In this document: positions 37,180 to 52,169 of the stretch, piece by piece
Layout of the letters: each line of letters begins with the position of its first letter
How positions within the stretch are numbered: the first letter of the stretch is position 1
Assembly (NCBI RefSeq): GCF_003790525.1
Contig: NZ_CP033635.1
DNA length: 64,000 bases
Direction: 5' to 3' (one strand)
DNA from: Escherichia coli
GTDB lineage: Bacteria; Pseudomonadota; Gammaproteobacteria; Enterobacterales; Enterobacteriaceae
The notes under the pieces: generated by a model
What the model was told of the DNA's origin: nothing
The model's database searches: none
Seen by the model: only the letters and a program-made list of their open reading frames with translations
Translations under genes and position numbers: made by a program

Positions 37180-39228
37180 ATGAGTCGTAAACAACTGGCG
37201 CTATTCGAACCAACACTTGTCGTTCAGGCGCTGAAAGAAGCGGTGAAAAAATTAAACCCGCAGGCGCAATGGCGCAATCCGGTGATGTTTATCGTCTGGA
37301 TCGGCAGTCTGCTGACCACCTTTATTAGCATCGCAATGGCAAGCGGCGCGATGCCTGGCAATGCGCTGTTTAGCGCGGCAATTAGCGCATGGCTGTGGGT
37401 CACCGTACTGTTCGCTAATTTCGCCGAGGCGCTGGCTGAAGGCCGCAGTAAAGCGCAGGCCAACAGTCTGAAAGGTGTAAAAAAAACCGCCTTTGCCCGC
37501 AAGCTGCGTGAGCCGAAATATGGCGCTGCGGCGGACAAAGTACCTGCCGATCAACTGCGTAAAGGCGATATCGTACTGGTAGAAGCTGGCGATATTATCC
37601 CCTGCGATGGTGAAGTTATTGAAGGGGGGGCATCGGTCGATGAAAGCGCCATCACCGGGGAATCGGCACCGGTGATCCGTGAATCCGGCGGCGATTTTGC
37701 CTCCGTCACTGGCGGTACGCGTATTCTTTCTGACTGGCTGGTGATTGAGTGCAGCGTTAACCCCGGCGAGACATTTCTGGATCGGATGATCGCGATGGTG
37801 GAAGGCGCGCAGCGACGCAAAACGCCAAACGAGATTGCCCTGACCATTCTCCTGATTGCCCTGACTATCGTCTTTTTACTGGCAACCGCCACGCTGTGGC
37901 CGTTTTCCGCGTGGGGCGGTAATGCAGTCAGCGTAACGGTACTGGTGGCGCTGCTGGTCTGTCTGATCCCAACGACCATTGGCGGTCTGTTGTCAGCGAT
38001 CGGCGTCGCCGGGATGAGTCGGATGCTGGGCGCGAATGTGATTGCCACCAGCGGACGTGCAGTTGAAGCGGCAGGTGACGTTGACGTTCTGCTACTGGAT
38101 AAAACCGGCACCATCACACTTGGTAACCGTCAGGCGTCGGAGTTTATCCCTGCGCAGGGCGTGGATGAAAAAACGCTGGCTGACGCCGCACAACTGGCTT
38201 CGCTGGCTGATGAAACGCCGGAAGGCCGCAGTATTGTGATCCTCGCCAAGCAGCGTTTTAACCTGCGTGAGCGCGATGTGCAGTCGCTTCACGCCACCTT
38301 TGTACCGTTTACTGCGCAAAGCCGGATGAGCGGGATCAACATCGACAACCGCATGATCCGTAAAGGTTCTGTCGATGCCATTCGCCGCCATGTTGAGGCT
38401 AACGGCGGTCACTTCCCTGCCGACGTCGATCAAAAAGTCGATCAGGTTGCGCGTCAGGGAGCCACGCCGCTGGTGGTGGTGGAAGGTTCTCGTGTGCTGG
38501 GCGTTATTGCGCTGAAAGATATCGTCAAAGGCGGTATTAAAGAGCGCTTCGCCCAACTGCGCAAAATGGGCATTAAAACGGTGATGATTACCGGTGATAA
38601 CCGTCTGACTGCCGCCGCGATAGCTGCGGAAGCGGGTGTCGATGATTTTCTCGCCGAAGCGACACCGGAGGCCAAGCTGGCATTGATTCGTCAGTATCAG
38701 GCGGAAGGCCGTTTGGTGGCGATGACCGGCGACGGCACCAACGATGCTCCGGCGCTGGCGCAGGCAGATGTCGCGGTGGCGATGAACTCTGGTACTCAGG
38801 CGGCGAAAGAAGCGGGCAATATGGTGGATCTCGACTCCAACCCGACCAAGTTGATCGAGGTGGTACATATTGGCAAACAGATGCTGATGACCCGTGGCTC
38901 GCTGACCACCTTCAGCATTGCCAACGATGTGGCGAAATACTTCGCCATTATTCCGGCGGCGTTCGCGGCAACGTATCCGCAGTTAAATGCGCTGAACATC
39001 ATGCGCCTGCATTCGCCCGACTCCGCCATTCTCAGTGCGGTGATTTTCAACGCCTTGATTATCGTCTTTTTGATTCCCCTGGCGTTAAAAGGCGCGAGTT
39101 ATAAACCGCTTACCGCTTCTGCCATGTTGCGCCGTAACTTATGGATTTACGGTCTGGGTGGGCTGCTGGTGCCGTTTATTGGTATCAAAGTCATTGATTT
39201 ACTGCTAACCGTTTGCGGTCTGGTGTGA
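37180..39228 (+). CDS. kdpB: potassium-transporting P-type ATPase catalytic subunit B
   Basis: 682-aa translation with P-type ATPase motifs ([18 protein letters not shown]). Confidence 0.97.
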
Positions 39229-39236
39229 GGTTTACC

Positions 39237-39809
39237 ATGAGTGGATTACGTCCGGCATTATCGACATTTCTCTTTCTGTTATTGATTACTGGCGGCGTTT
39301 ACCCGCTGCTGACCACCGCGCTGGGGCAATGGTGGTTTCCCTGGCAGGCCAACGGTTCGTTGATTCGTGAAGGTGATACGGTGCGCGGTTCGGCATTGAT
39401 CGGGCAGAATTTTACTGGCAACGGCTATTTTCATGGTCGCCCGTCGGCAACGGCAGAAATGCCCTATAATCCACAGGCTTCTGGCGGGAGCAATCTGGCG
39501 GTCAGTAACCCTGAGCTGGATAAACTAATAGCCGCACGCGTTGCTGCATTACGGGCCGCTAACCCGGATGCCAGCGCGAGCGTTCCGGTTGAGCTGGTGA
39601 CGGCATCGGCAAGCGGGCTGGACAATAATATCACCCCGCAAGCGGCGGCATGGCAGATCCCACGCGTGGCGAAAGCGCGTAATCTCAGCGTTGAACAGCT
39701 CACGCAACTGATCGCAAAATACAGCCAACAACCGCTGGTGAACTATATCGGCCAGCCGGTCGTCAACATTGTCGAACTCAATCTGGCGCTGGATAAGCTT
39801 GATGAATAA
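39237..39809 (+). CDS. kdpC: potassium-transporting ATPase subunit C
   Basis: Start set at [17 protein letters not shown], giving 190 aa. Confidence 0.93.
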
Positions 39810-42486
39810 CGAACCCTTACGTCCCGACCCCGATCGTCTGCTGGAACAAACTGCCGCGCCGCATCGGGGGAAGCTGAAAGTTTTCTTCGGTGCCTGCGCA
39901 GGCGTCGGGAAGACCTGGGCGATGCTGGCAGAAGCCCAGCGACTGCGGGCGCAAGGGCTGGATATTGTGGTTGGCGTGGTAGAAACCCACGGGCGGAAAG
40001 ATACCGCCGCAATGCTGGAAGGGCTGGCTGTTCTGCCGTTAAAACGCCAGGCGTACCGTGGGCGGCACATCAGCGAGTTTGATCTCGATGCCGCCCTCGC
40101 CCGCCGTCCGGCACTGATCTTAATGGACGAACTGGCGCACAGTAATGCGCCAGGTTCTCGTCATCCCAAACGCTGGCAGGATATTGAAGAACTGCTGGAA
40201 GCTGGCATTGATGTTTTCACTACCGTCAACGTTCAGCATCTGGAAAGTCTGAATGATGTGGTCAGCGGCGTCACCGGAATTCAGGTACGGGAAACCGTGC
40301 CCGATCCTTTTTTTGATGCCGCCGACGACGTAGTACTGGTGGACTTGCCCCCGGACGATCTGCGCCAGCGACTGAAAGAAGGCAAAGTCTATATTGCCGG
40401 GCAGGCGGAGCGCGCCATTGAACATTTTTTTCGTAAAGGTAATCTGATCGCCCTGCGCGAACTGGCACTGCGCCGTACTGCCGATCGCGTTGATGAGCAA
40501 ATGCGCGCCTGGCGGGGGCATCCTGGCGAAGAGAAAGTCTGGCACACGCGCGACGCGATCCTTTTATGCATCGGGCATAACACCGGCAGCGAAAAACTGG
40601 TCCGCGCGGCGGCGCGGCTGGCGTCACGGCTGGGAAGCGTCTGGCACGCGGTGTATGTTGAAACCCCTGCCCTGCACCGCTTACCGGAGAAAAAACGTCG
40701 GGCAATTCTCAGCGCCTTACGTCTGGCGCAGGAGCTGGGCGCAGAGACGGCAACACTTTCTGATCCAGCGGAAGAGAAAGCGGTAGTGCGTTATGCCCGT
40801 GAACATAATCTCGGCAAGATTATTCTCGGTCGCCCAGCCTCGCGCCGCTGGTGGCGTCGGGAAACGTTTGCTGACCGACTGGCGCGAATCGCCCCCGATC
40901 TCGATCAGGTGCTGGTCGCGCTTGATGAACCACCCGCCCGCACGATAAACAACGCGCTGGATAGCCGCTCTTTTAAAGACAAGTGGCGGGTACAGATTCA
41001 GGGATGCGTGGTTGCCGCCGCGTTATGCGCCGTTATCACCTTAATTGCCATGCAGTGGCTGATGGCGTTTGATGCCGCCAACCTGGTGATGCTGTATCTG
41101 CTTGGCGTGGTGATGGTGGCGCTATTTTATGGACGCTGGCCTTCAGTGGTTGCCACCGTCATTAATGTGGTGAGTTTCGATCTCTTTTTTATCGCCCCAC
41201 GCGGCACGCTCGCCGTCTCTGATGTGCAATATCTACTGACCTTCGCGGTGATGTTAACCGTCGGGCTGGTGATCGGGAACCTTACTGCGGGCGTGCGTTA
41301 TCAGGCGCGGGTAGCCCGTTACCGCGAGCAACGCACACGGCACTTATATGAAATGTCGAAAGCTCTGGCTGTGGGCCGCAGTCCGCAGGACATCGCCGCC
41401 ACCAGCGAACAATTTATTGCCTCCACGTTTCATGCCCGCAGTCAGGTGCTGTTACCCGATGACAACGGTAAATTGCAGCCGTTAACACATCCGCAAGGAA
41501 TGACGCCGTGGGACGATGCCATCGCGCAGTGGAGTTTTGATAAAGGCCTGCCTGCGGGCGCGGGCACCGACACGTTACCCGGTGTACCGTACCAGATTTT
41601 GCCGCTAAAAAGCGGCGAGAAAACCTACGGACTGGTGGTGGTGGAACCGGGGAATCTGCGTCAATTGATGATCCCGGAACAGCAGCGCCTGCTGGAGACG
41701 TTTACGCTGTTAGTCGCCAATGCCCTTGAGCGGCTGACGCTGACCGCCAGCGAAGAACAGGCGCGGATGGCAAGCGAACGAGAACAGATCCGCAACGCCC
41801 TGCTGGCGGCACTTTCGCATGATTTACGCACGCCGCTTACGGTGCTGTTCGGTCAGGCAGAAATCTTAACGCTCGATCTGGCAAGCGAAGGATCGCCCCA
41901 CGCCCGCCAGGCCAGCGAGATTCGCCAGCATGTGCTGAACACGACCCGACTGGTGAATAATCTACTGGATATGGCGCGAATTCAGTCCGGCGGCTTTAAT
42001 TTGAAGAAAGAGTGGTTAACGCTGGAAGAAGTGGTCGGCAGCGCGCTGCAAATGCTGGAACCGGGTTTATCGTCGCCCATCAATCTTTCTCTGCCAGAAC
42101 CGCTGACCTTAATCCACGTTGACGGGCCACTGTTTGAACGGGTGCTGATTAATCTGCTGGAGAACGCGGTGAAATACGCGGGTGCGCAGGCCGAAATTGG
42201 TATCGATGCCCACGTTGAGGGCGAAAATCTACAACTGGATGTCTGGGATAATGGCCCCGGTCTTCCACCAGGCCAGGAGCAGACGATTTTCGATAAGTTT
42301 GCTCGTGGAAATAAAGAGTCGGCGGTGCCGGGGGTAGGGCTTGGGCTGGCAATTTGTCGGGCGATTGTGGATGTACACGGCGGCACCATTACCGCGTTCA
42401 ACCGACCGGAAGGTGGTGCCTGTTTTCGTGTTACACTTCCCCAGCAAACTGCCCCTGAACTTGAAGAATTTCATGAGGATATGTGA
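39802..42486 (+). CDS. kdpD: sensor histidine kinase KdpD
   Basis: Start set at [14 protein letters not shown], giving 894 aa; overlaps the kdpC end. Confidence 0.95.
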
Positions 42487-43160
42487 CAAACGTTCTGATT
42501 GTTGAAGATGAACAGGCTATTCGTCGCTTTCTGCGCACGGCGCTGGAGGGCGACGGGATGCGCGTCTTTGAGGCCGAAACGCTGCAACGCGGCTTGCTGG
42601 AAGCGGCAACCCGTAAGCCAGATTTGATTATTCTCGATCTCGGCCTGCCCGATGGTGATGGGATTGAGTTTATCCGCGACCTGCGCCAGTGGAGCGCGGT
42701 GCCGGTGATTGTGCTTTCCGCACGCAGCGAAGAGAGCGACAAAATCGCCGCACTGGATGCCGGAGCGGATGATTACCTGAGTAAGCCGTTTGGCATTGGC
42801 GAATTGCAGGCCCGTCTGCGCGTCGCTTTACGCCGCCACTCCGCCACCACCGCGCCCGATCCGCTGGTGAAATTTTCCGATGTGACCGTCGATTTAGCCG
42901 CCCGCGTGATTCACCGGGGTGAGGAAGAGGTGCATCTCACGCCGATTGAATTCCGCCTGCTGGCCGTGCTGCTCAACAACGCCGGAAAAGTGCTCACCCA
43001 GCGCCAGTTACTCAATCAGGTGTGGGGACCAAACGCGGTCGAACACAGTCATTATTTGCGTATTTATATGGGGCATCTGCGACAAAAACTGGAGCAAGAT
43101 CCCGCCCGCCCCCGCCATTTCATTACTGAAACCGGTATTGGGTATCGGTTTATGCTTTGA
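42483..43160 (+). CDS. kdpE: response regulator KdpE (OmpR family)
   Basis: 225-aa translation; GTG start overlapping the kdpD stop. Confidence 0.93.
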   Translation: MTNVLIVEDEQAIRRFLRTALEGDGMRVFEAETLQRGLLEAATRKPDLIILDLGLPDGDGIEFIRDLRQWSAVPVIVLSARSEESDKIAALDAGADDYLSKPFGIGELQARLRVALRRHSATTAPDPLVKFSDVTVDLAARVIHRGEEEVHLTPIEFRLLAVLLNNAGKVLTQRQLLNQVWGPNAVEHSHYLRIYMGHLRQKLEQDPARPRHFITETGIGYRFML

Positions 43161-43197
43161 ATATTAATTTTAATACATCCTGCCTTTTATTAATTAA

Positions 43198-43226
43198 AGC
43201 CGTAATAATAAATACGGCTTTTTATC
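43198..43226 (+). terminator. intrinsic terminator downstream of kdpE
   Basis: Hairpin AGCCGTA-ATAATAAA-TACGGCT followed by TTTTTAT. Confidence 0.6.
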
Positions 43227-43393
43227 TTAAACAACACACAAAAATAACAATTCAATATTTTATATTACTGAGTAAAAAGTTCATCATTAAATAAATTAAG
43301 ATTGATCATTTTTTATTGATCACCTTCACAGTTCAACAGTATTTCCTGGATAGAATACCTTCACCTTCATTCACATCAGGAAAGGTAAATTAA

Positions 43394-43498
43394 ATGGAAA
43401 ATAACAGCCGCACTATGCCCCATATAAGGCGGACAACTCATATTATGAAGTTTGCTCATCGCAATAGCTTCGACTTTCACTTCTTCAATGCCCGTTAG
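43394..43498 (+). CDS. speFL: speF leader peptide (ornithine-sensing arrest peptide)
   Basis: 34-codon ORF MENNSRTMPHIRRTTHIMKFAHRNSFDFHFFNAR about 260 bp upstream of speF. Confidence 0.8.
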   Translation: MENNSRTMPHIRRTTHIMKFAHRNSFDFHFFNAR

Positions 43499-43755
43499 TC
43501 TACCGACTAAGGGCACTTCAGCGTACAGGTCTTCCTGACTCTCTGTATTACAGGCATATGCCTGTATTCCGCAGTGCTCATTCTCTGTTAACCCTTGTAT
43601 TATCAGCCACCGGACTGATAAGGGTTTCTGCATTCTGAAAAAAGCAAACTTCTGATTAATTTATCAGCGGGGTAACTTTGCTTTTTTTCCGGCACGATCG
43701 ATTTCTCATTCGAGAAATTGAGGACCTGCTATTACCAAAAATAAAGAGTTGGAAA

Positions 43756-45954
43756 ATGTCAAAATTAAAAATTGCGGTTAGTGATTCTTGCCCGGACTGT
43801 TTTACCACGCAGCGAGAATGTATCTATATTAATGAAAACAGTAATATCGATGTGGCGGCAATAGTTTTATCGCTCAACGATGTTACACGCGGAAAACTCG
43901 ATGAAATCGATGCCACGGGTTATGGCATCCCGGTATTTATTGCTACTGAAAATCAAGAACGTGTACCCGCAGAGTATTTGCCCCGTATTTCGGGTGTCTT
44001 TGAGAATTGCGAATCGCGACGAGAATTTTATGGTCGTCAGTTAGAAACCGCAGCCAGCCATTATGAAACTCAACTGCGCCCGCCCTTCTTCCGCGCACTG
44101 GTCGATTATGTCAATCAGGGTAACAGCGCGTTTAATTGCCCCGGTCATCAGGGCGGCGAATTTTTCCGTCGCCATCCGGCGGGGAATCAGTTTGTGGAAT
44201 ACTTTGGTGAGGCGCTGTTCCGTGCTGACTTGTGCAACGCGGATGTGGCAATGGGCGATCTGCTGATTCACGAAGGCGCGCCATGCATTGCACAGCAACA
44301 TGCGGCAAAAGTGTTTAATGCCGATAAAACATACTTCGTTCTAAATGGCACTTCATCTTCTAACAAAGTGGTTTTAAACGCCCTGTTAACACCGGGGGAT
44401 CTGGTGCTGTTTGACCGTAATAACCATAAATCTAATCACCACGGAGCGTTGCTACAGGCTGGCGCAACACCAGTTTATCTGGAAACCGCACGCAACCCGT
44501 ATGGCTTTATCGGTGGTATTGATGCCCACTGCTTCGAAGAAAATTACCTGCGCGAACTGATTACAGAAGTCGCACCGCAGCGGGCAAAAGAGGCGCGTCC
44601 TTTCCGCCTCGCCGTTATTCAGCTAGGCACTTACGACGGTACGATTTATAACGCCCGTCAGGTGGTGGATAAAATTGGTCATCTGTGTGACTACATCCTC
44701 TTTGACTCCGCATGGGTCGGCTATGAGCAGTTTATCCCGATGATGGCGGACTGTTCACCACTGTTGCTGGATCTTAATGAGAACGATCCGGGTATTCTGG
44801 TTACGCAATCTGTGCATAAACAGCAGGCTGGTTTTTCCCAGACTTCACAAATCCATAAAAAAGACAGCCATATCAAAGGGCAACAGCGTTATGTACCGCA
44901 CAAACGCATGAACAACGCCTTTATGATGCATGCCTCCACCAGCCCGTTCTATCCGCTGTTTGCCGCACTGGATATCAACGCCAAAATGCATGAAGGCGTC
45001 AGCGGTCGTAATATGTGGATGGATTGTGTGGTAAATGGCATTAATGCCCGCAAACTGATCCTCGATAACTGTCAGCATATTCGTCCATTCGTACCTGAAC
45101 TGGTGGATGGTAAACCCTGGCAGTCGTATGAAACAGCGCAAATTGCGGTTGATCTGCGCTTCTTCCAGTTTGTACCAGGTGAGCACTGGCATTCTTTTGA
45201 AGGCTATGCAGAGAATCAATACTTTGTCGATCCGTGCAAACTGTTGCTGACAACCCCAGGTATTGATGCACGTAACGGCGAATATGAAGCGTTCGGTGTA
45301 CCCGCGACGATTCTTGCTAACTTCCTGCGCGAAAATGGCGTAGTGCCGGAAAAATGCGATCTTAACTCCATCCTCTTTCTGCTGACTCCGGCAGAAGATA
45401 TGGCCAAACTTCAGCAACTTGCTGCTCTGCTGGTACGCTTCGAAAAACTGCTTGAGTCCGACGCGCCATTATCAGAAGTACTGCCTTCCATCTACAAACA
45501 GCATGAAGAGCGCTACACCGGTTATACCCTGCGTCAGTTGTGTCAGGAAATGCATGATTTGTATGCCCGTCACAACGTGAAACAACTGCAAAAAGAGATG
45601 TTTCGTAAGGAACACTTCCCACGTGTCAGCATGAATCCACAAGAAGCCAACTACGCCTATTTACGCGGTGAAGTGGAGCTGGTTCGTCTGCCGGATGCAG
45701 AAGGCCGTATCGCTGCAGAAGGTGCGCTTCCTTATCCTCCGGGAGTGCTGTGTGTTGTTCCGGGTGAAATCTGGGGTGGTGCTGTTCTGCGTTACTTCAG
45801 CGCTCTGGAAGAAGGGATCAACCTGCTGCCAGGTTTTGCACCGGAGCTTCAGGGTGTCTATATCGAAGAACATGATGGTCGTAAGCAAGTTTGGTGCTAT
45901 GTCATCAAGCCTCGTGGTGCGCAAAGCACCCTGCTGAAAGGGGAAAAATTATGA
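43756..45954 (+). CDS. speF: inducible ornithine decarboxylase
   Basis: Start set at MSKLKIAVSDSCPD, giving 732 aa. Confidence 0.96.
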   Translation: MSKLKIAVSDSCPDCFTTQRECIYINENSNIDVAAIVLSLNDVTRGKLDEIDATGYGIPVFIATENQERVPAEYLPRISGVFENCESRREFYGRQLETAASHYETQLRPPFFRALVDYVNQGNSAFNCPGHQGGEFFRRHPAGNQFVEYFGEALFRADLCNADVAMGDLLIHEGAPCIAQQHAAKVFNADKTYFVLNGTSSSNKVVLNALLTPGDLVLFDRNNHKSNHHGALLQAGATPVYLETARNPYGFIGGIDAHCFEENYLRELITEVAPQRAKEARPFRLAVIQLGTYDGTIYNARQVVDKIGHLCDYILFDSAWVGYEQFIPMMADCSPLLLDLNENDPGILVTQSVHKQQAGFSQTSQIHKKDSHIKGQQRYVPHKRMNNAFMMHASTSPFYPLFAALDINAKMHEGVSGRNMWMDCVVNGINARKLILDNCQHIRPFVPELVDGKPWQSYETAQIAVDLRFFQFVPGEHWHSFEGYAENQYFVDPCKLLLTTPGIDARNGEYEAFGVPATILANFLRENGVVPEKCDLNSILFLLTPAEDMAKLQQLAALLVRFEKLLESDAPLSEVLPSIYKQHEERYTGYTLRQLCQEMHDLYARHNVKQLQKEMFRKEHFPRVSMNPQEANYAYLRGEVELVRLPDAEGRIAAEGALPYPPGVLCVVPGEIWGGAVLRYFSALEEGINLLPGFAPELQGVYIEEHDGRKQVWCYVIKPRGAQSTLLKGEKL

Positions 45955-47270
45955 GTCAGGCTAAATCGAACAAGATGGGCGTCGTTCAGTTAACCATACT
46001 GACGATGGTCAACATGATGGGCTCCGGTATCATCATGCTGCCGACAAAGCTTGCCGAAGTTGGGACAATCTCAATTATCTCCTGGCTGGTGACAGCCGTA
46101 GGCTCAATGGCACTGGCGTGGGCATTCGCAAAATGCGGTATGTTCAGCCGTAAGGCAGGTGGTATGGGCGGTTATGCGGAGTATGCTTTCGGTAAATCCG
46201 GTAACTTTATGGCGAACTACACCTACGGTGTCTCGCTGCTGATTGCTAACGTCGCGATTGCTATTTCGGCGGTTGGTTACGGCACCGAACTGCTCGGCGC
46301 GAGTTTGTCGCCAGTGCAGATTGGTCTTGCGACCATCGGGGTGCTGTGGATTTGTACCGTGGCTAACTTCGGTGGTGCGCGCATTACCGGGCAAATCAGT
46401 AGCATTACTGTGTGGGGGGTAATCATTCCGGTCGTCGGTCTGTGCATTATCGGCTGGTTCTGGTTTAGCCCGACGCTGTACGCTAACTCATGGAACCCTC
46501 ATCATGTACCGTTCTTTAGCGCTGTAGGTTCCTCCATCGCCATGACGTTGTGGGCTTTCCTCGGTCTGGAGTCTGCCTGTGCCAACGCCGAAGTAGTGGA
46601 AAACCCGGAACGTAACGTGCCAATAGCAGTCCTTGGCGGTACGTTAGGTGCGGCAGTGATTTATATCGTCTCCACCAACGTGATTGCCGGGATTGTGCCC
46701 AATATGGAGCTGGCAAATTCAACGGCACCATTTGGCCTGGCCTTCGCACAGATGTTCACACCAGAAGTGGGTAAAGTCATTATGGCGCTGATGGTGATGT
46801 CCTGCTGCGGTTCACTGCTTGGCTGGCAGTTCACCATTGCCCAGGTGTTTAAATCTTCATCTGATGAAGGCTACTTCCCTAAAATTTTCTCCCGTGTAAC
46901 CAAAGTGGATGCACCGGTTCAGGGAATGTTGATCATTGTGATTATTCAGAGTGGATTGGCACTGATGACCATTAGCCCGTCACTGAACAGCCAGTTCAAC
47001 GTGCTGGTTAACCTGGCCGTGGTGACCAATATCATCCCGTATATTCTGTCGATGGCAGCATTAGTTATTATTCAGCAGGTCGCCAATGTGCCACCGTCAA
47101 AAGCGAAAGTAGCAAACTTTGTTGCCTTTGTTGGTGCGATGTACAGTTTCTATGCGCTGTACTCATCCGGGGAAGAAGCCATGCTGTACGGTTCCATCGT
47201 GACCTTCCTTGGTTGGACACTGTATGGTCTGGTATCTCCACGCTTTGAACTGAAAAATAAACACGGTTAA
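45951..47270 (+). CDS. potE: putrescine:ornithine antiporter
   Basis: Start set at MSQAKSNKMGVVQL, giving 439 aa; ATGA overlap with the speF stop. Confidence 0.96.
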   Translation: MSQAKSNKMGVVQLTILTMVNMMGSGIIMLPTKLAEVGTISIISWLVTAVGSMALAWAFAKCGMFSRKAGGMGGYAEYAFGKSGNFMANYTYGVSLLIANVAIAISAVGYGTELLGASLSPVQIGLATIGVLWICTVANFGGARITGQISSITVWGVIIPVVGLCIIGWFWFSPTLYANSWNPHHVPFFSAVGSSIAMTLWAFLGLESACANAEVVENPERNVPIAVLGGTLGAAVIYIVSTNVIAGIVPNMELANSTAPFGLAFAQMFTPEVGKVIMALMVMSCCGSLLGWQFTIAQVFKSSSDEGYFPKIFSRVTKVDAPVQGMLIIVIIQSGLALMTISPSLNSQFNVLVNLAVVTNIIPYILSMAALVIIQQVANVPPSKAKVANFVAFVGAMYSFYALYSSGEEAMLYGSIVTFLGWTLYGLVSPRFELKNKHG

Positions 47271-47286
47271 AAAAAGCGAAATAAAA

Positions 47287-47320
47287 AAGGGCGATTGAAT
47301 GATCGCCCTTTCTGTTTGTT
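47287..47320 (+). terminator. intrinsic terminator downstream of potE
   Basis: Hairpin GGGCGAT-TGAATG-ATCGCCC followed by TTTCTGTTTGTT. Confidence 0.65.
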
Positions 47321-47353
47321 GACAAAGAGTTCGTTATTTATGCCGCATCCGGC

Positions 47354-47495
47354 AGGTGTAGGGTCCAAACGCGGTCGAACACAGCAACTATTTGCGTAAT
47401 TATATGAGGCATTTGCGACAAAAACTGGAACAGGATCTCGTCCGCCCCGCCATTTCATTACTGAAACCGGTATTGGGTATCGGTTTATGCTTTGA
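47354..47495 (+). repeat. degenerate direct repeat of the kdpE 3' end (about 142 bp), non-coding fragment
   Basis: Aligns base-for-base with kdpE 43014-43160 at roughly 90% identity with one 3-bp gap; the last ~50 nt, including the TGA, are identical. Confidence 0.85.
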
Positions 47496-47618
47496 AAAAA
47501 GTGGCAATGTATGGATAAAGTCATTTTTTATTCAAATATAAGGAACTTAATATTTAAAAAATGTCCCATACAATGCCTCATCATAAATGACACCGTAGCA
47601 CACAAGGAGCAAGTAGCG

Positions 47619-48269
47619 ATGCGTGAAGTGAGTCAGTTAGTAAATACTGAAGATTCAGCCTGGCCAATAATCCAGAATTGGTTAAAAGAAGCCACAAACC
47701 ATGCCGAACTCTTACCGGTTAATAAAGATTTAGCCGAAACCGCACTTTATCAATTACAGGTTACAACAAAATCACCGATGGGTGCGCTTGTCTATGGCTC
47801 CGGAGGTCTGCTGATTGATAACGGTTGGTTACGCATAGCAGGCTCTGGTCACCCCCGGTTACCACGAGATCCAGCAAGTTGGACACAACGCCCTGAATTC
47901 GCAAGCGTGCGGGCTTTACCCATCGCCGATGATGTCGCAGGGGGAATTTTTGCTCTTAATGGTGGCGATCTTGGGGAAGATACTGGCTGCGTTTATTATT
48001 TTGCGCCAGATACGCTGAATTGGGAAAGTCTGGAGGTTGGATATTCTGAGTTTCTTCAGTGGGCATTATCCGGTGATTTAGATACCTTCTATGAAAATGT
48101 ACGCTGGCCGCAATGGCAAGAAGACGTAATAAAATTATCGGCAACGGAAGCCTTCACTTTCTACCCTTTCTTATGGGTACAATGTGAAGAAGCAAGAACA
48201 AGAAAAGTTATTTCGCTTACTGAACTCTGGGAAATGCAGTATCAAATGAAAGAAACAATCACGCAATAA
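47619..48269 (+). CDS. uncharacterised protein, YbfG-like (possibly DUF2625)
   Basis: 216-aa ORF from the ATG preceded by AGGAG (MREVSQLVNTEDSAWP...). Family name recalled, not verified. Confidence 0.6.
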   Translation: MREVSQLVNTEDSAWPIIQNWLKEATNHAELLPVNKDLAETALYQLQVTTKSPMGALVYGSGGLLIDNGWLRIAGSGHPRLPRDPASWTQRPEFASVRALPIADDVAGGIFALNGGDLGEDTGCVYYFAPDTLNWESLEVGYSEFLQWALSGDLDTFYENVRWPQWQEDVIKLSATEAFTFYPFLWVQCEEARTRKVISLTELWEMQYQMKETITQ

Positions 48270-48309
48270 GACATGTTCAGGTCCGGGTTTCATTCCCGGA
48301 CTCGCTATT

Positions 48310-48804
48310 TTAATGTGTGTTTATCGCTTTCAATTCTTGCTGGCAATTTTCTGACTGACAGCGTCGCAACTCAATAATCCCTACATGCATCATCGAGCCA
48401 AAAAATCCGCTTTCGCTGACATAATCCTCATTAACTAGCGGTCGAGTGCCGGGCTTACCCTGGCAAATCCCCATAAAAAATGAGGTGTAGCATTGCCATT
48501 CAGGATTTAAACCGGTCTTTTCTTGTGCTGACATATCATGAAGATAAGTAAGTTCTTTTTCGTTCCCGCCTGACAACTGCCAGCGGCGGGTATTATCAGG
48601 TAAGTTATCGCCACGGCAATTTGTCTTACACCGGGAAGGCGCAATATTTACCGTAATGCTCCCCGTTAATCCTCTGGTTTTATCTTTAGGGGTCAGTAAC
48701 CAGTCACCAGCTAATGATGATTGTTCAGGTTGGGCGCATGCTGTCAGCAGTAGTGTGGCGGTAATTAATGCCACTCTGACGACCAGACTCCTTTTGGTCT
48801 TCAT
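48310..48804 (-). CDS. ybfP: lipoprotein YbfP
   Basis: Start set at MKTKRSLVVRVALITATLLLTAC (lipoprotein signal with lipobox LTAC), giving 164 aa. Confidence 0.85.
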   Translation of the reverse strand: MKTKRSLVVRVALITATLLLTACAQPEQSSLAGDWLLTPKDKTRGLTGSITVNIAPSRCKTNCRGDNLPDNTRRWQLSGGNEKELTYLHDMSAQEKTGLNPEWQCYTSFFMGICQGKPGTRPLVNEDYVSESGFFGSMMHVGIIELRRCQSENCQQELKAINTH

Positions 48805-48855
48805 TTTGAATTCCCTTGAGCTATTCAGTTTGTTGGCAAAGTGCTCGTTGTTCAT

Positions 48856-48960
48856 GCCGGATGCGGCGTGAACGTCTTATCCGGCCTACAAAATCGCGTA
48901 AATTCAATATATTGCACCATCTTCCCAAGCCTGATAAGCGTAGCGCATCAGGCAGTCATA
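48856..48960. repeat. REP (repetitive extragenic palindrome) cluster between ybfP and pgm
   Basis: GCCGGATGCGGCGTGAACGTCTTATCCGGCCTAC and GCCTGATAAGCGTAGCGCATCAGGC match the enterobacterial REP consensus. Confidence 0.8.
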
Positions 48961-49008
48961 AGTAAAAAAAGGCGATCTTCTGACCGCCCTTTTTCTTATT
49001 AAATGTGT

Positions 49009-50649
49009 TTACGCGTTTTTCAGAACTTCGCTAACAATCTCAACCGCTTCTTTCTCAATCTGCTTGCGATGTTCTTCCCCGAGGAAGCTTTCGCAGTAGA
49101 TTTTGTATGCGTCTTCTGTGCCTGACGGACGCGCGGCGAACCAGCCGTTGTCAGTCATCACTTTCAGACCGCCAATAGAAGCACCATTACCCGGAGCCGC
49201 CGTCAGGCGTGCGGTGATCGGGTCACCTGCCAGGGTGCTGGAGCTCACCATTTCCGGAGACAGCTTAGACAGCGCCGCTTTTTGTGCGGAAGTCGCAGCT
49301 GCCTGCAAACGGTTATAGCTCGGCGCACCAAAGCGTTCTGCCAGTTCGTTGTAGTGTTCCTGCGGGTTCTTACCAGTGACAGCGGTGATTTCCGCCGCCA
49401 GCAGACACATGATGATGCCGTCTTTATCAGTCGACCACGGCGTGCCGTCGAAACGCAGGAAGGAAGCCCCTGCGCTCTCTTCGCCGCCAAAGCCGAAGCT
49501 GCCATCGAACAGACCATCAACAAACCATTTGAAACCTACCGGGACTTCTACCAGCTTACGGCCCAAGTCATTGACCACACGGTCGATCATCGCAGATGAA
49601 ACCAGCGTTTTACCGACAGCAACATCTTTGCCCCACTGCGGACGGTGCTGGAACAGGTAGTTGATCGCCACCGCCAGGTAGTGGTTCGGATTCATCAAAC
49701 CTGCCGGAGTGACGATACCGTGACGGTCATAATCCGGGTCGTTAGCAAACGCCAGATCGAACTTATCACGCAGTGCCAGCAGACCCGCCATCGCACACTC
49801 GGAGGAGCAGTCCATACGGATCGCACCGTCTTTATCGAGGTGCATAAAGCGGAAGGTTTGATCGACCTGATCGTTAACGATGGTCAGGTTGAGGTTGTAA
49901 TACTCGCCAATGCGCTTCCAGTATTCGATACCGGAACCGCCCAACGGATCAACGCCCAGCGTCAGGCCCGCTTTCTGAATCGCCGCCATATCAACGATAT
50001 CGGCCAGACCTTCCACAAACGGCTGCACCAGATCCTGCTCTTTCACATGACCGGATGCCATCGCTTCGTCGAGGGAGATACGCTTCACGCCTTTCAGGCC
50101 ATCGGCCAGCAGTGCGTTGGCCCTGTCTTCCACCACTTTGGTGACGTTGGTATCAGCCGGGCCACCATTTGGCGGGTTGTACTTGATACCACCATCTTCC
50201 GGCGGGTTATGGGACGGTGTAATCACGATACCGTCTGCCAGCGGGCCACCTTTTTTATTGTGAACCAGGATGGCATTGGAAACGGCAGGCGTTGGAGTGA
50301 AGCCATTGTTTTCCTGCACAATAACATCAACGCCGTTCGCTGCCAGCACTTCCAGAACGGAAATAAACGCAGGCTCGGACAGGGCGTGAGTATCTTTACC
50401 CACATAGCAAGGGCCAGTGATGCCGTTTTTCGCACGTTCTTCAGCAATTGCCTGAGCGATCGCCAGAATGTGCGGCTCGTTAAAGCTGTGGCGCGCTGCA
50501 CTGCCACGGTGACCGGAAGTACCGAATTTCACCGCGTGCTCCGCATTCCCTGCTTCTGGTTTCAGTACATAATATTGCGCCGTCAGTTGGGCGACGTTAA
50601 TCAAATCACTCTGTTGTGCAGGTTGGCCTGCACGATTGTGGATTGCCAT
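49009..50649 (-). CDS. pgm: phosphoglucomutase
   Basis: Start set at [16 protein letters not shown], giving 546 aa; contains the active-site TxSHNP motif. Confidence 0.96.
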
Positions 50650-50674
50650 TGCTTTGTCCTTTGTCTGCAACGTT

Positions 50675-51220
50675 TTAGATAGTTCCGCAAACCTTCTCAA
50701 TCAATTCCGCCGGGAATTGCATCGACTGCATGATGTGTTCGATCATGCTGCATTTACGGCCGGTGTTGGTGTTGGTGATCACCCAATACGGCGTACCAGG
50801 CACATGTTTCGGCTTGGTCTGATTACCATTTTTCAGCAGCGTTTGTTCATCTGCCGCAAAGTAAACGCGTGTACGACCGTGCAACGATTCCGTTGCTTCG
50901 GCAAACGCCTGGGCGTCAAGAGAATATAGTGTAGACAACAGCAGCATAAAGCGATTGACCGCTCGCTTTTGCTCTGCGTATTCATCCGAAAGCAGAAGTT
51001 CACGCATTGCGCGAACCTTGTCTTTAATCGTTTTGACCGGCTTCGCTTCGACGATAGCAGGTGACGCAACGCGAACCTCTTTCGTCACCGGAGCAGCAGG
51101 CTGTGATGCGGCGGAAAATTTCAACATACGCCGTAAAATGTCGGATGCGCTCTCGCCGATATGCTTAGTGTGGCTGGCAATATAGCTGTAGAGTTCATCA
51201 TCAACTTCAATCGTTTTCAT
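50675..51220 (-). CDS. seqA: replication initiation negative regulator SeqA
   Basis: Start set at [17 protein letters not shown], giving 181 aa. Confidence 0.95.
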
Positions 51221-51404
51221 CTTAATCCAGTGCAGTGTCTTAGCTGAATACAAGTCGCCAGGAGTATATGAATAAATCCCGGCAGCGGATAGCGTCAAGC
51301 CTGGCTTGCAGAAAAACTCGGAATAAACCTTATTTGTTGCAGCCCTGTGGCACAATGGTCAACATAATACCCTAACCCGACAACGCGAAAAAAAGAACTT
51401 TGCC

Positions 51405-52169
51405 ATGAAATTGAATATCCGCGCGCAAACTGCACAAAACCAGCACAATAATTCTCCCATCGTTCTTGTCCATGGTCTGTTTGGCAGCCTCGACAACCTT
51501 GGCGTACTGGCTCGCGATCTGGTAAACGATCACAATATCATCCAGGTTGATATGCGTAACCACGGTCTTTCACCGAGAGATCCGGTAATGAATTACCCGG
51601 CGATGGCGCAGGATCTTGTTGATACCCTGGATGCACAGCAGATCGACAAAGCAACATTTATCGGTCACTCCATGGGCGGTAAAGCGGTAATGGCTCTTAC
51701 TGCACTAGCCCCCGATCGCATTGACAAGCTGGTGGCGATTGATATTGCGCCGGTCGACTATCACGTACGCCGTCATGATGAGATTTTCGCGGCCATCAAC
51801 GCAGTCAGTGAATCAGACGCACAAACACGCCAGCAAGCAGCGGCAATAATGCGCCAGCATCTTAATGAAGAAGGGGTGATTCAGTTTCTGTTAAAATCTT
51901 TTGTTGACGGGGAGTGGCGCTTTAACGTGCCAGTATTGTGGGATCAGTATCCGCATATTGTGGGTTGGGAGAAAATCCCGGCATGGGATCATCCTACCCT
52001 GTTTATCCCTGGCGGCAATTCTCCGTATGTTAGCGAGCAGTACCGTGATGATTTACTGGCACAATTTCCACAGGCTCGGGCGCATGTGATTGCAGGCGCG
52101 GGTCACTGGGTCCATGCTGAAAAACCGGATGCGGTATTACGCGCTATCCGTCGCTATCTCAATGATTAA
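51405..52169 (+). CDS. ybfF: alpha/beta-hydrolase esterase
   Basis: 254-aa translation with the GHSMGG nucleophile elbow. Confidence 0.92.
   Translation: MKLNIRAQTAQNQHNNSPIVLVHGLFGSLDNLGVLARDLVNDHNIIQVDMRNHGLSPRDPVMNYPAMAQDLVDTLDAQQIDKATFIGHSMGGKAVMALTALAPDRIDKLVAIDIAPVDYHVRRHDEIFAAINAVSESDAQTRQQAAAIMRQHLNEEGVIQFLLKSFVDGEWRFNVPVLWDQYPHIVGWEKIPAWDHPTLFIPGGNSPYVSEQYRDDLLAQFPQARAHVIAGAGHWVHAEKPDAVLRAIRRYLND

What the first reader, a model, noticed from the sequence alone, without database searches (positions are those of the whole stretch)
43014..47495. speFL-speF-potE module bracketed by direct repeats of the kdpE 3' end
The last ~145 bp of kdpE (43014-43160) recur in degenerate form (~90% identity, one 3-bp gap, identical final ~50 nt including the stop) at 47354-47495, just past the potE terminator. 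The roughly 4.2 kb between the repeats holds exactly the speFL-speF-potE unit. This is the signature of an ancient insertion of the acid-inducible ornithine decarboxylase/antiporter module into or beside the kdpE 3' end, with the downstream copy left as a non-coding relic.
Basis: seen in the sequence. Interest (0 to 1): 0.55.

Follow-up and report, generated by a model that had tools for sequence, protein, structure and literature searches.

The report
Known kdpE-fragment pseudogene (ybfI) scar
The second copy of the kdpE gene end is real, but it is the already annotated E. coli pseudogene ybfI. It is a scar left when two alternative gene cassettes of one variable chromosomal slot were joined in about a third of E. 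coli strains; it does not mark the original arrival of the speF-potE genes.

Summary
Window 43017-43161 (the last 145 nt of kdpE) recurs at 47353-47496 with 91% identity, a 1-nt gap (not 3) and the last 51-52 nt identical. The copy carries a TGG>TAG stop and a frameshift. It is pseudogene ybfI (b4636) of K-12.

In 30 of 80 other Enterobacterales species, speFL-speF-potE already lies between kdpE and pgm with no second kdpE end. In species without the module, kdpE faces pgm directly or with other cargo, never ybfG.

The relic is specific to E. coli and polymorphic (about 1823 of 5426 complete genomes). In every relic-bearing locus read here it comes with ybfG-ybfP. A second, overlooked repeat pair (47310-47353 and 48824-48868) brackets relic-ybfG-ybfP.

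The best reading is that this allele is a tandem merger of a speF-cassette allele and a ybfG/ybfP-cassette allele, through one illegitimate joint (truncated REP to kdpE -145). Rare genomes show precise loss of either cassette. Relic-bearing genomes also carry a deeply divergent block of about 975 nt (43163-44136) that starts 3 nt after the kdpE stop, so speF may have been re-acquired. Which cassette came second is unresolved. This is an ordinary kind of feature at a locally interesting locus.

The parts
42483..43160 (+). kdpE (response regulator), intact, GTG start, 225 aa
   Evidence: ORF list; annotated kdpE in the matching records
43017..43161 (+). Repeat copy A: the last 48 codons of kdpE plus 1 nt
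43163..44136 (+). Deeply divergent haplotype block: kdpE-speFL intergenic region with a kdpE terminator-like hairpin at 43196-43221, speFL, the speF leader and speF codons 1-127. It holds 279 fixed differences between relic-bearing and relic-free E. coli, against 3 elsewhere in 41960-47270
   Evidence: hairpin
43394..43498 (+). speFL leader peptide (MENNSRTMPHIRRTTHIMKFAHRNSFDFHFFNAR)
43756..45954 (+). speF, inducible ornithine decarboxylase, 732 aa
45951..47270 (+). potE, putrescine-ornithine antiporter, 439 aa
47286..47311 (.). TERM1: bidirectional terminator-like hairpin after potE. It differs at 1 of 20 stem-loop positions from the single potE/pgm hairpin of E. albertii
47310..47353 (+). 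Repeat copy B': X' (about 30 nt) plus a truncated REP head (GCCGCATCCGGC). It is a copy of 48824-48868. Its right end is the novel joint to the relic, with about 1 nt of overlap
47353..47496 (+). Repeat copy A': 5'-truncated kdpE relic, which is pseudogene ybfI (b4636). It has TGG>TAG, 1-nt deletion, H>N and I>N changes
47497..47618 (+). Spacer between the relic stop codon and ybfG. It is 98.4% conserved between the two deep alleles, against 92.4% for the relic
47619..48269 (+). ybfG, DUF2625 protein, intact here (a pseudogene in K-12). The closest homologues outside E. coli are at most 57% identical
48310..48804 (-). ybfP, lipoprotein, 164 aa, convergent with ybfG. They share a hairpin at 48280-48302
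48824..48868 (+). Repeat copy B: X plus the head of a full REP element, upstream of ybfP
48853..49008 (.). REP pair (BIME) and the pgm-proximal terminator-like hairpin TERM2. This stretch is homologous to the kdpE-pgm spacer of Escherichia genomes that lack speF. The consensus terminator scan did not call TERM2 in the window
   Evidence: not listed

Best explanation
The space between the convergent genes kdpE and pgm is a variable cargo slot. E. coli carries several structural alleles of it:
- a speFL-speF-potE cassette alone (T1, about 61% of genomes);
- no speF at all but ybfP (T8, 4.5%);
- the window's allele (T2, about 34%), which holds both the speF cassette and a ybfG-ybfP cassette in tandem.

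T2 has the layout A-[speF cassette]-B'|A'-[ybfG/ybfP cassette]-B. A is the last 145 nt of kdpE. B is a ~45-nt spacer plus REP head. This layout is what results when two alleles that share both flanks are joined head to tail: kdpE-speF cassette-B and kdpE-ybfG/ybfP cassette-B. It needs one illegitimate joint, a broken REP element fused to kdpE 145 nt before its stop, plus one ordinary homologous exchange in a flank (homology-facilitated illegitimate recombination or Campbell-type integration).

The relic is therefore the displaced kdpE end of the ybfG-allele chromosome. It lost its function at once and has decayed since.

The two repeat pairs remain recombinogenic. A/A' exchange deletes the speF module precisely, and B'/B exchange deletes relic-ybfG-ybfP.

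Shown: the anatomy, the distribution, the E. coli origin of the relic, its decay, and one recent A/A' deletion.
Inferred: the merger mechanism, the existence of the two single-cassette parents, and (leaning only) that the speF cassette was the later partner, re-acquired from a divergent Escherichia-like lineage.
For: Anatomy:
- Two interleaved repeat pairs, with a joint that has about 1 nt of overlap.
- The speF cassette and the ybfG/ybfP cassette occupy equivalent positions, each from TGAA| to |X.

Distribution:
- The relic with its flanks is in 1823 of 5426 E. coli genomes. It is in none of 80 other species.
- 30 of those 80 species have the speF module without a relic, and 41 have kdpE next to pgm.

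Origin and decay of the relic:
- Its inferred ancestor differs from E. coli kdpE alleles at 7-11 sites, from cryptic clades and E. albertii at 14-15, and from Citrobacter or Klebsiella at 18 or more. The shared changes are 1 nonsense, 2 non-synonymous and 1 synonymous, which fits decay after inactivation.
- YbfG has no homologue above 57% identity outside E. coli, so the relic did not arrive with ybfG from its original donor.

Single-cassette forms:
- kdpE-ybfG-ybfP-pgm occurs in 2 genomes and potE-TERM1-X-REP-REP-pgm in 2 genomes.
- CUWW10 is 100% (left flank) and 99.9% (right flank) identical to K-12-like relic-bearing strains, so its loss of speF is recent and occurred through the repeats.

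Hints that speF was re-acquired:
- Fixed differences between relic-bearing and relic-free genomes are confined to 43163-44136.
- That block branches outside E. coli plus E. albertii, while the rest of speF lies inside E. coli.
- TERM1 is of the E. albertii type. X-REP-REP-TERM2 is shared with speF-less alleles.
Against: - Neither parental allele is shown to be old. CUWW10 is a recent derivative. R32 (the speF-only form with X) carries the ybfP-proximal type of X, so it also looks derived.
- X is tied to ybfP in the speF-less T8 allele. A speF allele with X would itself need an earlier joining event, so at least two events are required.
- The relic ends in TGA-A like speF-bearing kdpE alleles. 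The speF-less alleles T3 and T8 end in TAG-GGG.
- The divergent block could be an unrelated introgression that is merely linked to the relic. It is found in 1695 genomes against 1823 with the relic, and I could not cross-tabulate genome by genome.
- The donor lineage of the block was not found.
- E. fergusonii, E. marmotae, E. ruysiae and Salmonella were not among the 80 loci.
Confidence: 0.55

Rival explanations
1. The speFL-speF-potE module originally entered the genome at the kdpE 3' end and duplicated 145 nt of the target. The ancestral order was kdpE-ybfG.
For: The repeats bracket the module. Two E. coli genomes have kdpE-ybfG without the module. A divergent block starts right after the repeat.
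Against: The module lies after kdpE without any relic in 30 other species and in about 61% of E. coli. No other species has ybfG after kdpE. ybfG/ybfP are restricted to E. coli. The model does not explain the X'-REP copy between the potE terminator and the relic. CUWW10 is a recent deletion.
Confidence: 0.12
2. Tandem duplication first. A speF-bearing or ybfG-bearing ancestor duplicated the segment from kdpE -145 to the REP, which created the joint. One copy's cassette was later replaced by the other cassette.
For: It gives the same final layout and the same joint. Both cassettes have identical boundaries (TGAA| and |X).
Against: It needs an unstable 1.6-4.3 kb tandem duplication to persist until a second rare event. 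No genome with two copies of the same cassette was seen: no genome has more than 3 places for the relic query, and the median is 1.
Confidence: 0.15
3. The ybfG-ybfP cassette, with a kdpE tail attached, was inserted into a speF-bearing E. coli. This is the opposite polarity of the same merger. The divergent speF 5' block is then an unrelated, linked introgression.
For: The relic was seen only together with the ybfG spacer in the loci read. The speF module next to kdpE is the widespread state. This locus has other divergent patches, for example potE 46465-46665.
Against: The right flank of T2 (X-REP-REP-TERM2) matches speF-less alleles. TERM1 and the 5' block look foreign to E. coli T1.
Confidence: 0.15
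4. The relic is the remnant of a separate paralogous response-regulator gene, or a chance similarity.
For: PGAP labels it only as a 'winged helix-turn-helix domain-containing protein'.
Against: It is 91% identical in DNA to kdpE itself, E=1e-52. It shares allele states with Escherichia kdpE, and the homology runs through the stop codon.
Confidence: 0.01

Closest known systems
ybfI (b4636), annotated pseudogene of E. coli K-12 MG1655
   Same: It has the same position (between potE and ybfG), the same 5' joint and 3' flank, and shares the inactivating changes (TAG, AAC, AAT)..
   Different: The window's allele differs from the K-12 allele at 10 sites plus a 1-nt deletion. Its last 51 nt are identical to the resident kdpE. 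No paper on E. coli ybfI was found in the library.
Displaced gene ends flanking integrated elements (for example tRNA or gene 3' ends duplicated at the att sites of genomic islands and prophages)
   Same: There is a direct repeat of a gene's 3' end. The upstream copy keeps the gene intact, the downstream copy is a fragment, and loss can be precise.
   Different: There is no integrase, recombinase or mobility gene between or beside the repeats. The repeat is 145 nt and 9% diverged, not a short identical core. The 'element' is a housekeeping-type operon that sits at this site in many genera without repeats.
Homology-facilitated illegitimate recombination or Campbell-type single-crossover integration (mechanisms known from transformation and merodiploid studies; cited from general knowledge)
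   Same: There is one joint without homology, flanking homology is duplicated, and the product resolves back by recombination between the duplicated flanks.
   Different: The mechanism is inferred from the layout only. Neither the event nor the parents were observed.
REP/BIME-associated rearrangements in E. coli intergenic regions
   Same: The joint lies inside a REP head. REP pairs flank ybfP in the T8 allele and lie next to pgm in T2 and T3.
   Different: The partner of the joint is a coding sequence (kdpE), not another REP.

Membership tests
E. coli pseudogene ybfI | A fragment homologous to the kdpE C-terminus, lying between potE and ybfG | tested here: met
   NC_000913 annotates ybfI at 716721-716870 between potE and ybfG. 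The K-12 copy aligns to the window's relic with the same joint and flanks.
Integrase-mediated genomic island (att duplication of a gene 3' end) | A tyrosine or serine recombinase gene at one end of the inserted segment | tested here: not met
   The only genes between kdpE and pgm are speFL, speF, potE, ybfG (DUF2625) and ybfP (lipoprotein, no NCBIfam hit).
Integrase-mediated genomic island (att duplication of a gene 3' end) | A short, identical core repeat at both ends | tested here: not met
   The repeat is 145 nt with 12 mismatches and 1 gap. The identical 51-52-nt 3' stretch is lineage-specific and absent in K-12.
Transposon or IS insertion with target-site duplication | A transposase and terminal inverted repeats, with a duplication of 2-14 bp | tested here: not met
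   No transposase ORF. The only inverted repeat found in 38000-52000 is a 26-nt, 73% match 7.5 kb apart. The duplication is 145 nt.
Hetero-allelic tandem merger (HFIR or Campbell type) | Both flanks duplicated in direct orientation around a single novel joint | tested here: met
   A/A' (43017-43161 and 47353-47496) and B'/B (47310-47353 and 48824-48868). The joint is CGGC|AGGTG.
Hetero-allelic tandem merger (HFIR or Campbell type) | Independent existence of both single-cassette parental alleles | tested here: inconclusive
   Both forms exist, 2 genomes each. CUWW10 is a recent derivative, and R32 carries the X-type rather than the X'-type spacer.
Hetero-allelic tandem merger (HFIR or Campbell type) | Direct observation of the recombination event and its RecA dependence | not testable with these tools
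   This needs experiments.
REP (repetitive extragenic palindrome) elements | The consensus head GCCGGATGCGGCG recurs in intergenic regions | tested here: met
   4 matches with at most 1 mismatch in the window, against 0.22 expected. There is a weak naRNA4 (REP-derived RNA) hit at 48850-48886. The same REP pair lies at another locus in L003.

The most novel reading that the evidence does not exclude
E. coli lineages such as K-12 lost speF-potE, as the T8 and T3 alleles have. They later re-acquired it from an Escherichia-like lineage that branches outside E. coli plus E. albertii, and the kdpE relic is the scar of that event. On this reading, the speFL-speF leader studied in K-12 is a xenologous minority allele. 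It has about 77% nucleotide identity to the majority allele, a ~50-nt deletion in the leader, and SpeFL residues 5-7 SRT instead of NRL. About 61% of E. coli would then regulate speF through a different leader. The two-cassette allele could also resolve to either cassette through its repeat pairs.
Probability: 0.3. Interest if true: 0.45.

Novelty: already known. Interest (0 to 1): 0.3.

Why it matters
The repeat itself is an annotated pseudogene, so it adds little on its own. The context is worth more.

- The kdpE/pgm slot in E. coli has at least five structural alleles. About 4.5% of complete genomes lack the inducible ornithine decarboxylase and antiporter altogether.
- The repeats allow precise loss of the module.
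- The K-12 speFL-speF regulatory region, the model for ornithine sensing by the ribosome, belongs to a deeply divergent minority haplotype. People who extrapolate K-12 speF regulation to pathogenic lineages (B2, E, B1) should know that the leader differs there.

Tried and rejected
- **Close relatives of YbfG outside E. coli.** The only candidates at 75-86% identity (P0005, P0006; loci L089-L091) are E. coli sequence riddled with C>T or A>G transitions. They are artefacts, not natural intermediates.
- **Donor of the divergent speF 5' block.** No locus among the 80 species is closer than about 78%. A protein search with the SpeF N-terminus returned only fragments, with nothing between E. coli types and Salmonella or Enterobacter at 69-74%.
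- **Plasmid origin of the ybfG-ybfP segment.** No plasmid carries it. The 'plasmid' hits are multi-Mb chromosome-sized records in PLSDB, which happened to reveal the T8 allele.
- **Rfam.** Only two sub-threshold hits.
- **Literature.** 'ybfI' returns only Bacillus subtilis papers, and no paper links ybfG or ybfP with speF or potE.
- **Promoter scan.** The counts do not exceed shuffled sequence, so no function is claimed for the relic.
- **Integrase island, transposon duplication, paralogous regulator, chance match.** All were rejected; see the membership tests.
Full report
**1. The observation**

The window is E. coli. It is 100% identical to strain AR_0013 over 47270-47640 and to SMS-3-5 over 43161-44150.

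- kdpE is 42483-43160.
- Its last 145 nt (43017-43161) recur at 47353-47496. The first 96 nt are 88% identical, then there is a 1-nt gap, then 52 of 52 nt are identical, including the stop.
- BLAST of the kdpE end against strain AR_0013, whose relic is identical to the window's, gives 91.0%, 12 mismatches, one gap, E=1.5e-52.
- The copy has TGG>TAG at its third codon and a frameshift.
- The perfect 3' identity is specific to this lineage. Here it is 13/93 against 0/51 differences (Fisher p=0.004). In K-12 it is 11/93 against 3/51. This suggests a local gene-conversion tract.

**2. It is already annotated**

PGAP marks the copy as a frameshifted, N-terminally truncated winged-helix pseudogene. 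The MG1655 record names it ybfI (b4636), between potE and ybfG. The K-12 and window copies share the same 5' joint, the same 3' flank and four to five inactivating or neutral changes, so they have one origin. I found no paper on E. coli ybfI in the library.

**3. Other species**

I fetched 80 species-level kdpE loci from Enterobacterales and typed them by tblastn. kdpE and pgm are convergent neighbours throughout.

| State between kdpE and pgm | Loci |
|---|---|
| speFL-speF-potE present | 30 |
| kdpE and pgm less than 1.3 kb apart, no speF | 41 |
| Other cargo | 3 |
| Held sequence ends before pgm | 6 |

- The 30 include E. albertii, part of Citrobacter, Enterobacter, Kluyvera, Lelliottia, Leclercia, Cedecea and Atlantibacter.
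- The 41 include a cryptic Escherichia (L004) and E. whittamii (L005).
- One of the three cargo loci, Entomohabitans, holds a 7.5-kb cysteate-utilisation cassette.
- None of the 80 has ybfG or ybfP there, and none has a second kdpE end.

So the speF module sits beside kdpE widely without any repeat. Species without it do not show kdpE-ybfG.

**4. Structural alleles within E. coli**

| Allele | Layout | Genomes (of 5426) |
|---|---|---|
| T2 (window, K-12, B strains, IAI39, SMS-3-5, CE10) | kdpE-S-TERM1-X'-truncated REP\|relic-spacer-ybfG><ybfP-X-REP-REP-TERM2-pgm | 1823 |
| T1 (ST131, O157:H7, O91:H21) | kdpE-S-one terminator-pgm | about 3330 |
| T8 | kdpE(TAG)-REP pair-ybfP-X-REP pair-pgm; no speF, no ybfG, no relic | 244 |
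| T4 | kdpE-spacer-ybfG-ybfP-pgm | 2 |
| T6 | potE-TERM1-X-REP-REP-TERM2-pgm | 2 |

S stands for speFL-speF-potE. The left junction of T8 matches that of the cryptic clades. IS1-mediated deletions also occur.

**5.

The 44 nt between the potE terminator and the relic (47310-47353) are a copy of the sequence upstream of ybfP plus the head of a REP element (48824-48868). The allele is therefore A-[speF cassette]-B'|A'-[ybfG/ybfP cassette]-B.

- Both cassettes lie between the same boundaries (TGAA| and |X).
- There is a single novel joint, where a truncated REP meets kdpE 145 nt before its stop. The overlap is about 1 nt.
- TERM1 differs at 1 of 20 positions from the single E. albertii hairpin.
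- TERM2 and the REP pair match the speF-less alleles and the E. coli T1 terminator.

**6. Source and age of the relic**

- The inferred ancestral relic differs from E. coli kdpE alleles at 7-11 sites, of which 4-5 are private to the relic. It differs from cryptic clades and E. albertii at 14-15 sites, and from Citrobacter or Klebsiella at 18 or more.
- The shared private changes are one nonsense, two non-synonymous and one synonymous. That is decay after inactivation, not divergence of a working gene.
- YbfG has no homologue above 57% identity outside E. coli. The relic therefore did not travel with ybfG from its original donor. An E. coli chromosome with kdpE directly followed by the ybfG spacer must once have existed.
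- The two relic alleles differ by 7%, while the adjacent spacer differs by 1.6%. The relic is unconstrained and old, roughly as old as the split between K-12-like and SMS-3-5-like lineages.

**7. The repeats are active**

CUWW10 (T4) is 100% identical to K-12 over 1445 nt left of the junction. It is 99.86% identical to a K-12-like relic-bearing strain over 4330 nt to the right. Its kdpE is of kdpE type through to the last diagnostic site. This is a recent precise deletion of speFL-speF-potE, with the exchange in the last ~20 nt of the repeat. That placement keeps kdpE intact. GF4-3 is an independent case. R32 (T6) carries the ybfP-proximal type of X abutting TERM1, as expected for an exchange at the left edge of B'/B.

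**8. A deep haplotype block**

I compared three T2 genomes with four T1 or T6 genomes.

- 279 fixed differences fall in 43163-44136, and only three fall elsewhere in 41960-47270.
- The block starts 3 nt after the kdpE stop. It covers the intergenic region, speFL, the leader and speF codons 1-127.
- It is about 77% identical to E. coli T1, E. albertii and Citrobacter alike.
- A neighbour-joining tree places speF nt 1-400 of T2 outside E. coli T1 plus E. albertii, while nt 601-2199 fall inside E. coli.
- The T2-type block is in 1695 genomes, close to the 1823 with the relic.
- Its leader lacks about 50 nt that are present in T1 and E. albertii. SpeFL differs at residues 5-7.
- No donor was found.

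**9. Explanation**

The layout is what a tandem merger of two alleles sharing both flanks would give. It needs one illegitimate joint and one homologous exchange. The relic is the displaced kdpE end of the ybfG-allele chromosome.

Three things lean towards the speF cassette being the later partner, re-acquired from a divergent Escherichia-like lineage:
- the foreign 5' block;
- the E. albertii-type TERM1;
- the speF-less type of the right flank.

The opposite polarity and a duplication-first route are not excluded. At least two events are needed, because X is tied to ybfP in the speF-less T8 allele. I put 0.55 on the merger model as a whole.

**10. Verdict**

It is wrong that this records the ancient arrival of the module or an ancestral kdpE-ybfG order. 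The kind of feature is ordinary. The locus-level polymorphism and the divergent K-12-type speF leader are the parts worth following up.

Noticed in passing
window 47310-47353 and 48824-48868: A second direct repeat of about 45 nt (about 85% identical, spacer X plus REP head) brackets relic-ybfG-ybfP. It interleaves with the kdpE repeat.
   Followed up: yes
window 43163-44136: The K-12/window-type intergenic region, speFL, leader and speF 5' end form a deeply divergent haplotype. It is about 77% identical to the majority E. coli type, has a ~50-nt leader deletion, and has SpeFL residues 5-7 SRT instead of NRL. It is found in about 1695 of 5426 genomes.
   Followed up: partly
L094 5467-8595 (E. 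coli 64A:C) and 244 complete E. coli genomes: This allele lacks speFL-speF-potE and ybfG entirely. kdpE ends in TAG and is followed by a REP pair, ybfP, X, a REP pair and pgm. About 4.5% of complete E. coli genomes therefore have no inducible ornithine decarboxylase or antiporter at this locus.
   Followed up: partly
window 46465-46665 (potE): A 200-nt patch is only about 86% identical to every other E. coli compared, including K-12, but 100% identical to AR_0013. It looks like another introgressed patch.
   Followed up: no
window 47619-48269: ybfG (DUF2625) is intact here at 216 aa. It is annotated as a pseudogene in K-12 MG1655.
   Followed up: no
L043 10687-18076; L056 10696-18121; L062 10692-11647: The convergent kdpE/pgm spacer holds other cargo in other genera. 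Entomohabitans has a cysteate cassette (CuyA, CuyB, a taurine-like ABC transporter, a LysR regulator and an adenine deaminase-like protein). Serratia has a PadR-like regulator. The cargo in L056 was not identified.
   Followed up: partly
window 47286-47311 vs 48960-48996; L002 13348-13403; L006 14861-14923: The hairpins after potE and before pgm are related but distinct. E. albertii's single hairpin is of the potE-proximal type. The single hairpin of E. coli T1 is of the pgm-proximal type, as if T1 arose by recombination between the two.
   Followed up: partly
L089, L090, L091 (Logan contigs): These are E. coli relic/ybfG-region sequences with dense C>T or A>G transitions. They are probably deaminated or mutagenised libraries and mimic 75-86% 'homologues' in protein searches.
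   Followed up: yes
PLSDB records NZ_CP134663.1, NZ_CP141089.1, NZ_OL790696.1: These records of 4.8-4.9 Mb, the size of E. coli chromosomes, are filed as plasmids. kdpE is flagged there as a predicted aminoglycoside-resistance gene.
   Followed up: no
L003 8248-8945; L087 4524-5221: Independent IS1 insertions with adjacent deletions remove kdpD(3')-kdpE-speF-potE-relic in L003, or speF-potE-relic in L087.
   Followed up: partly
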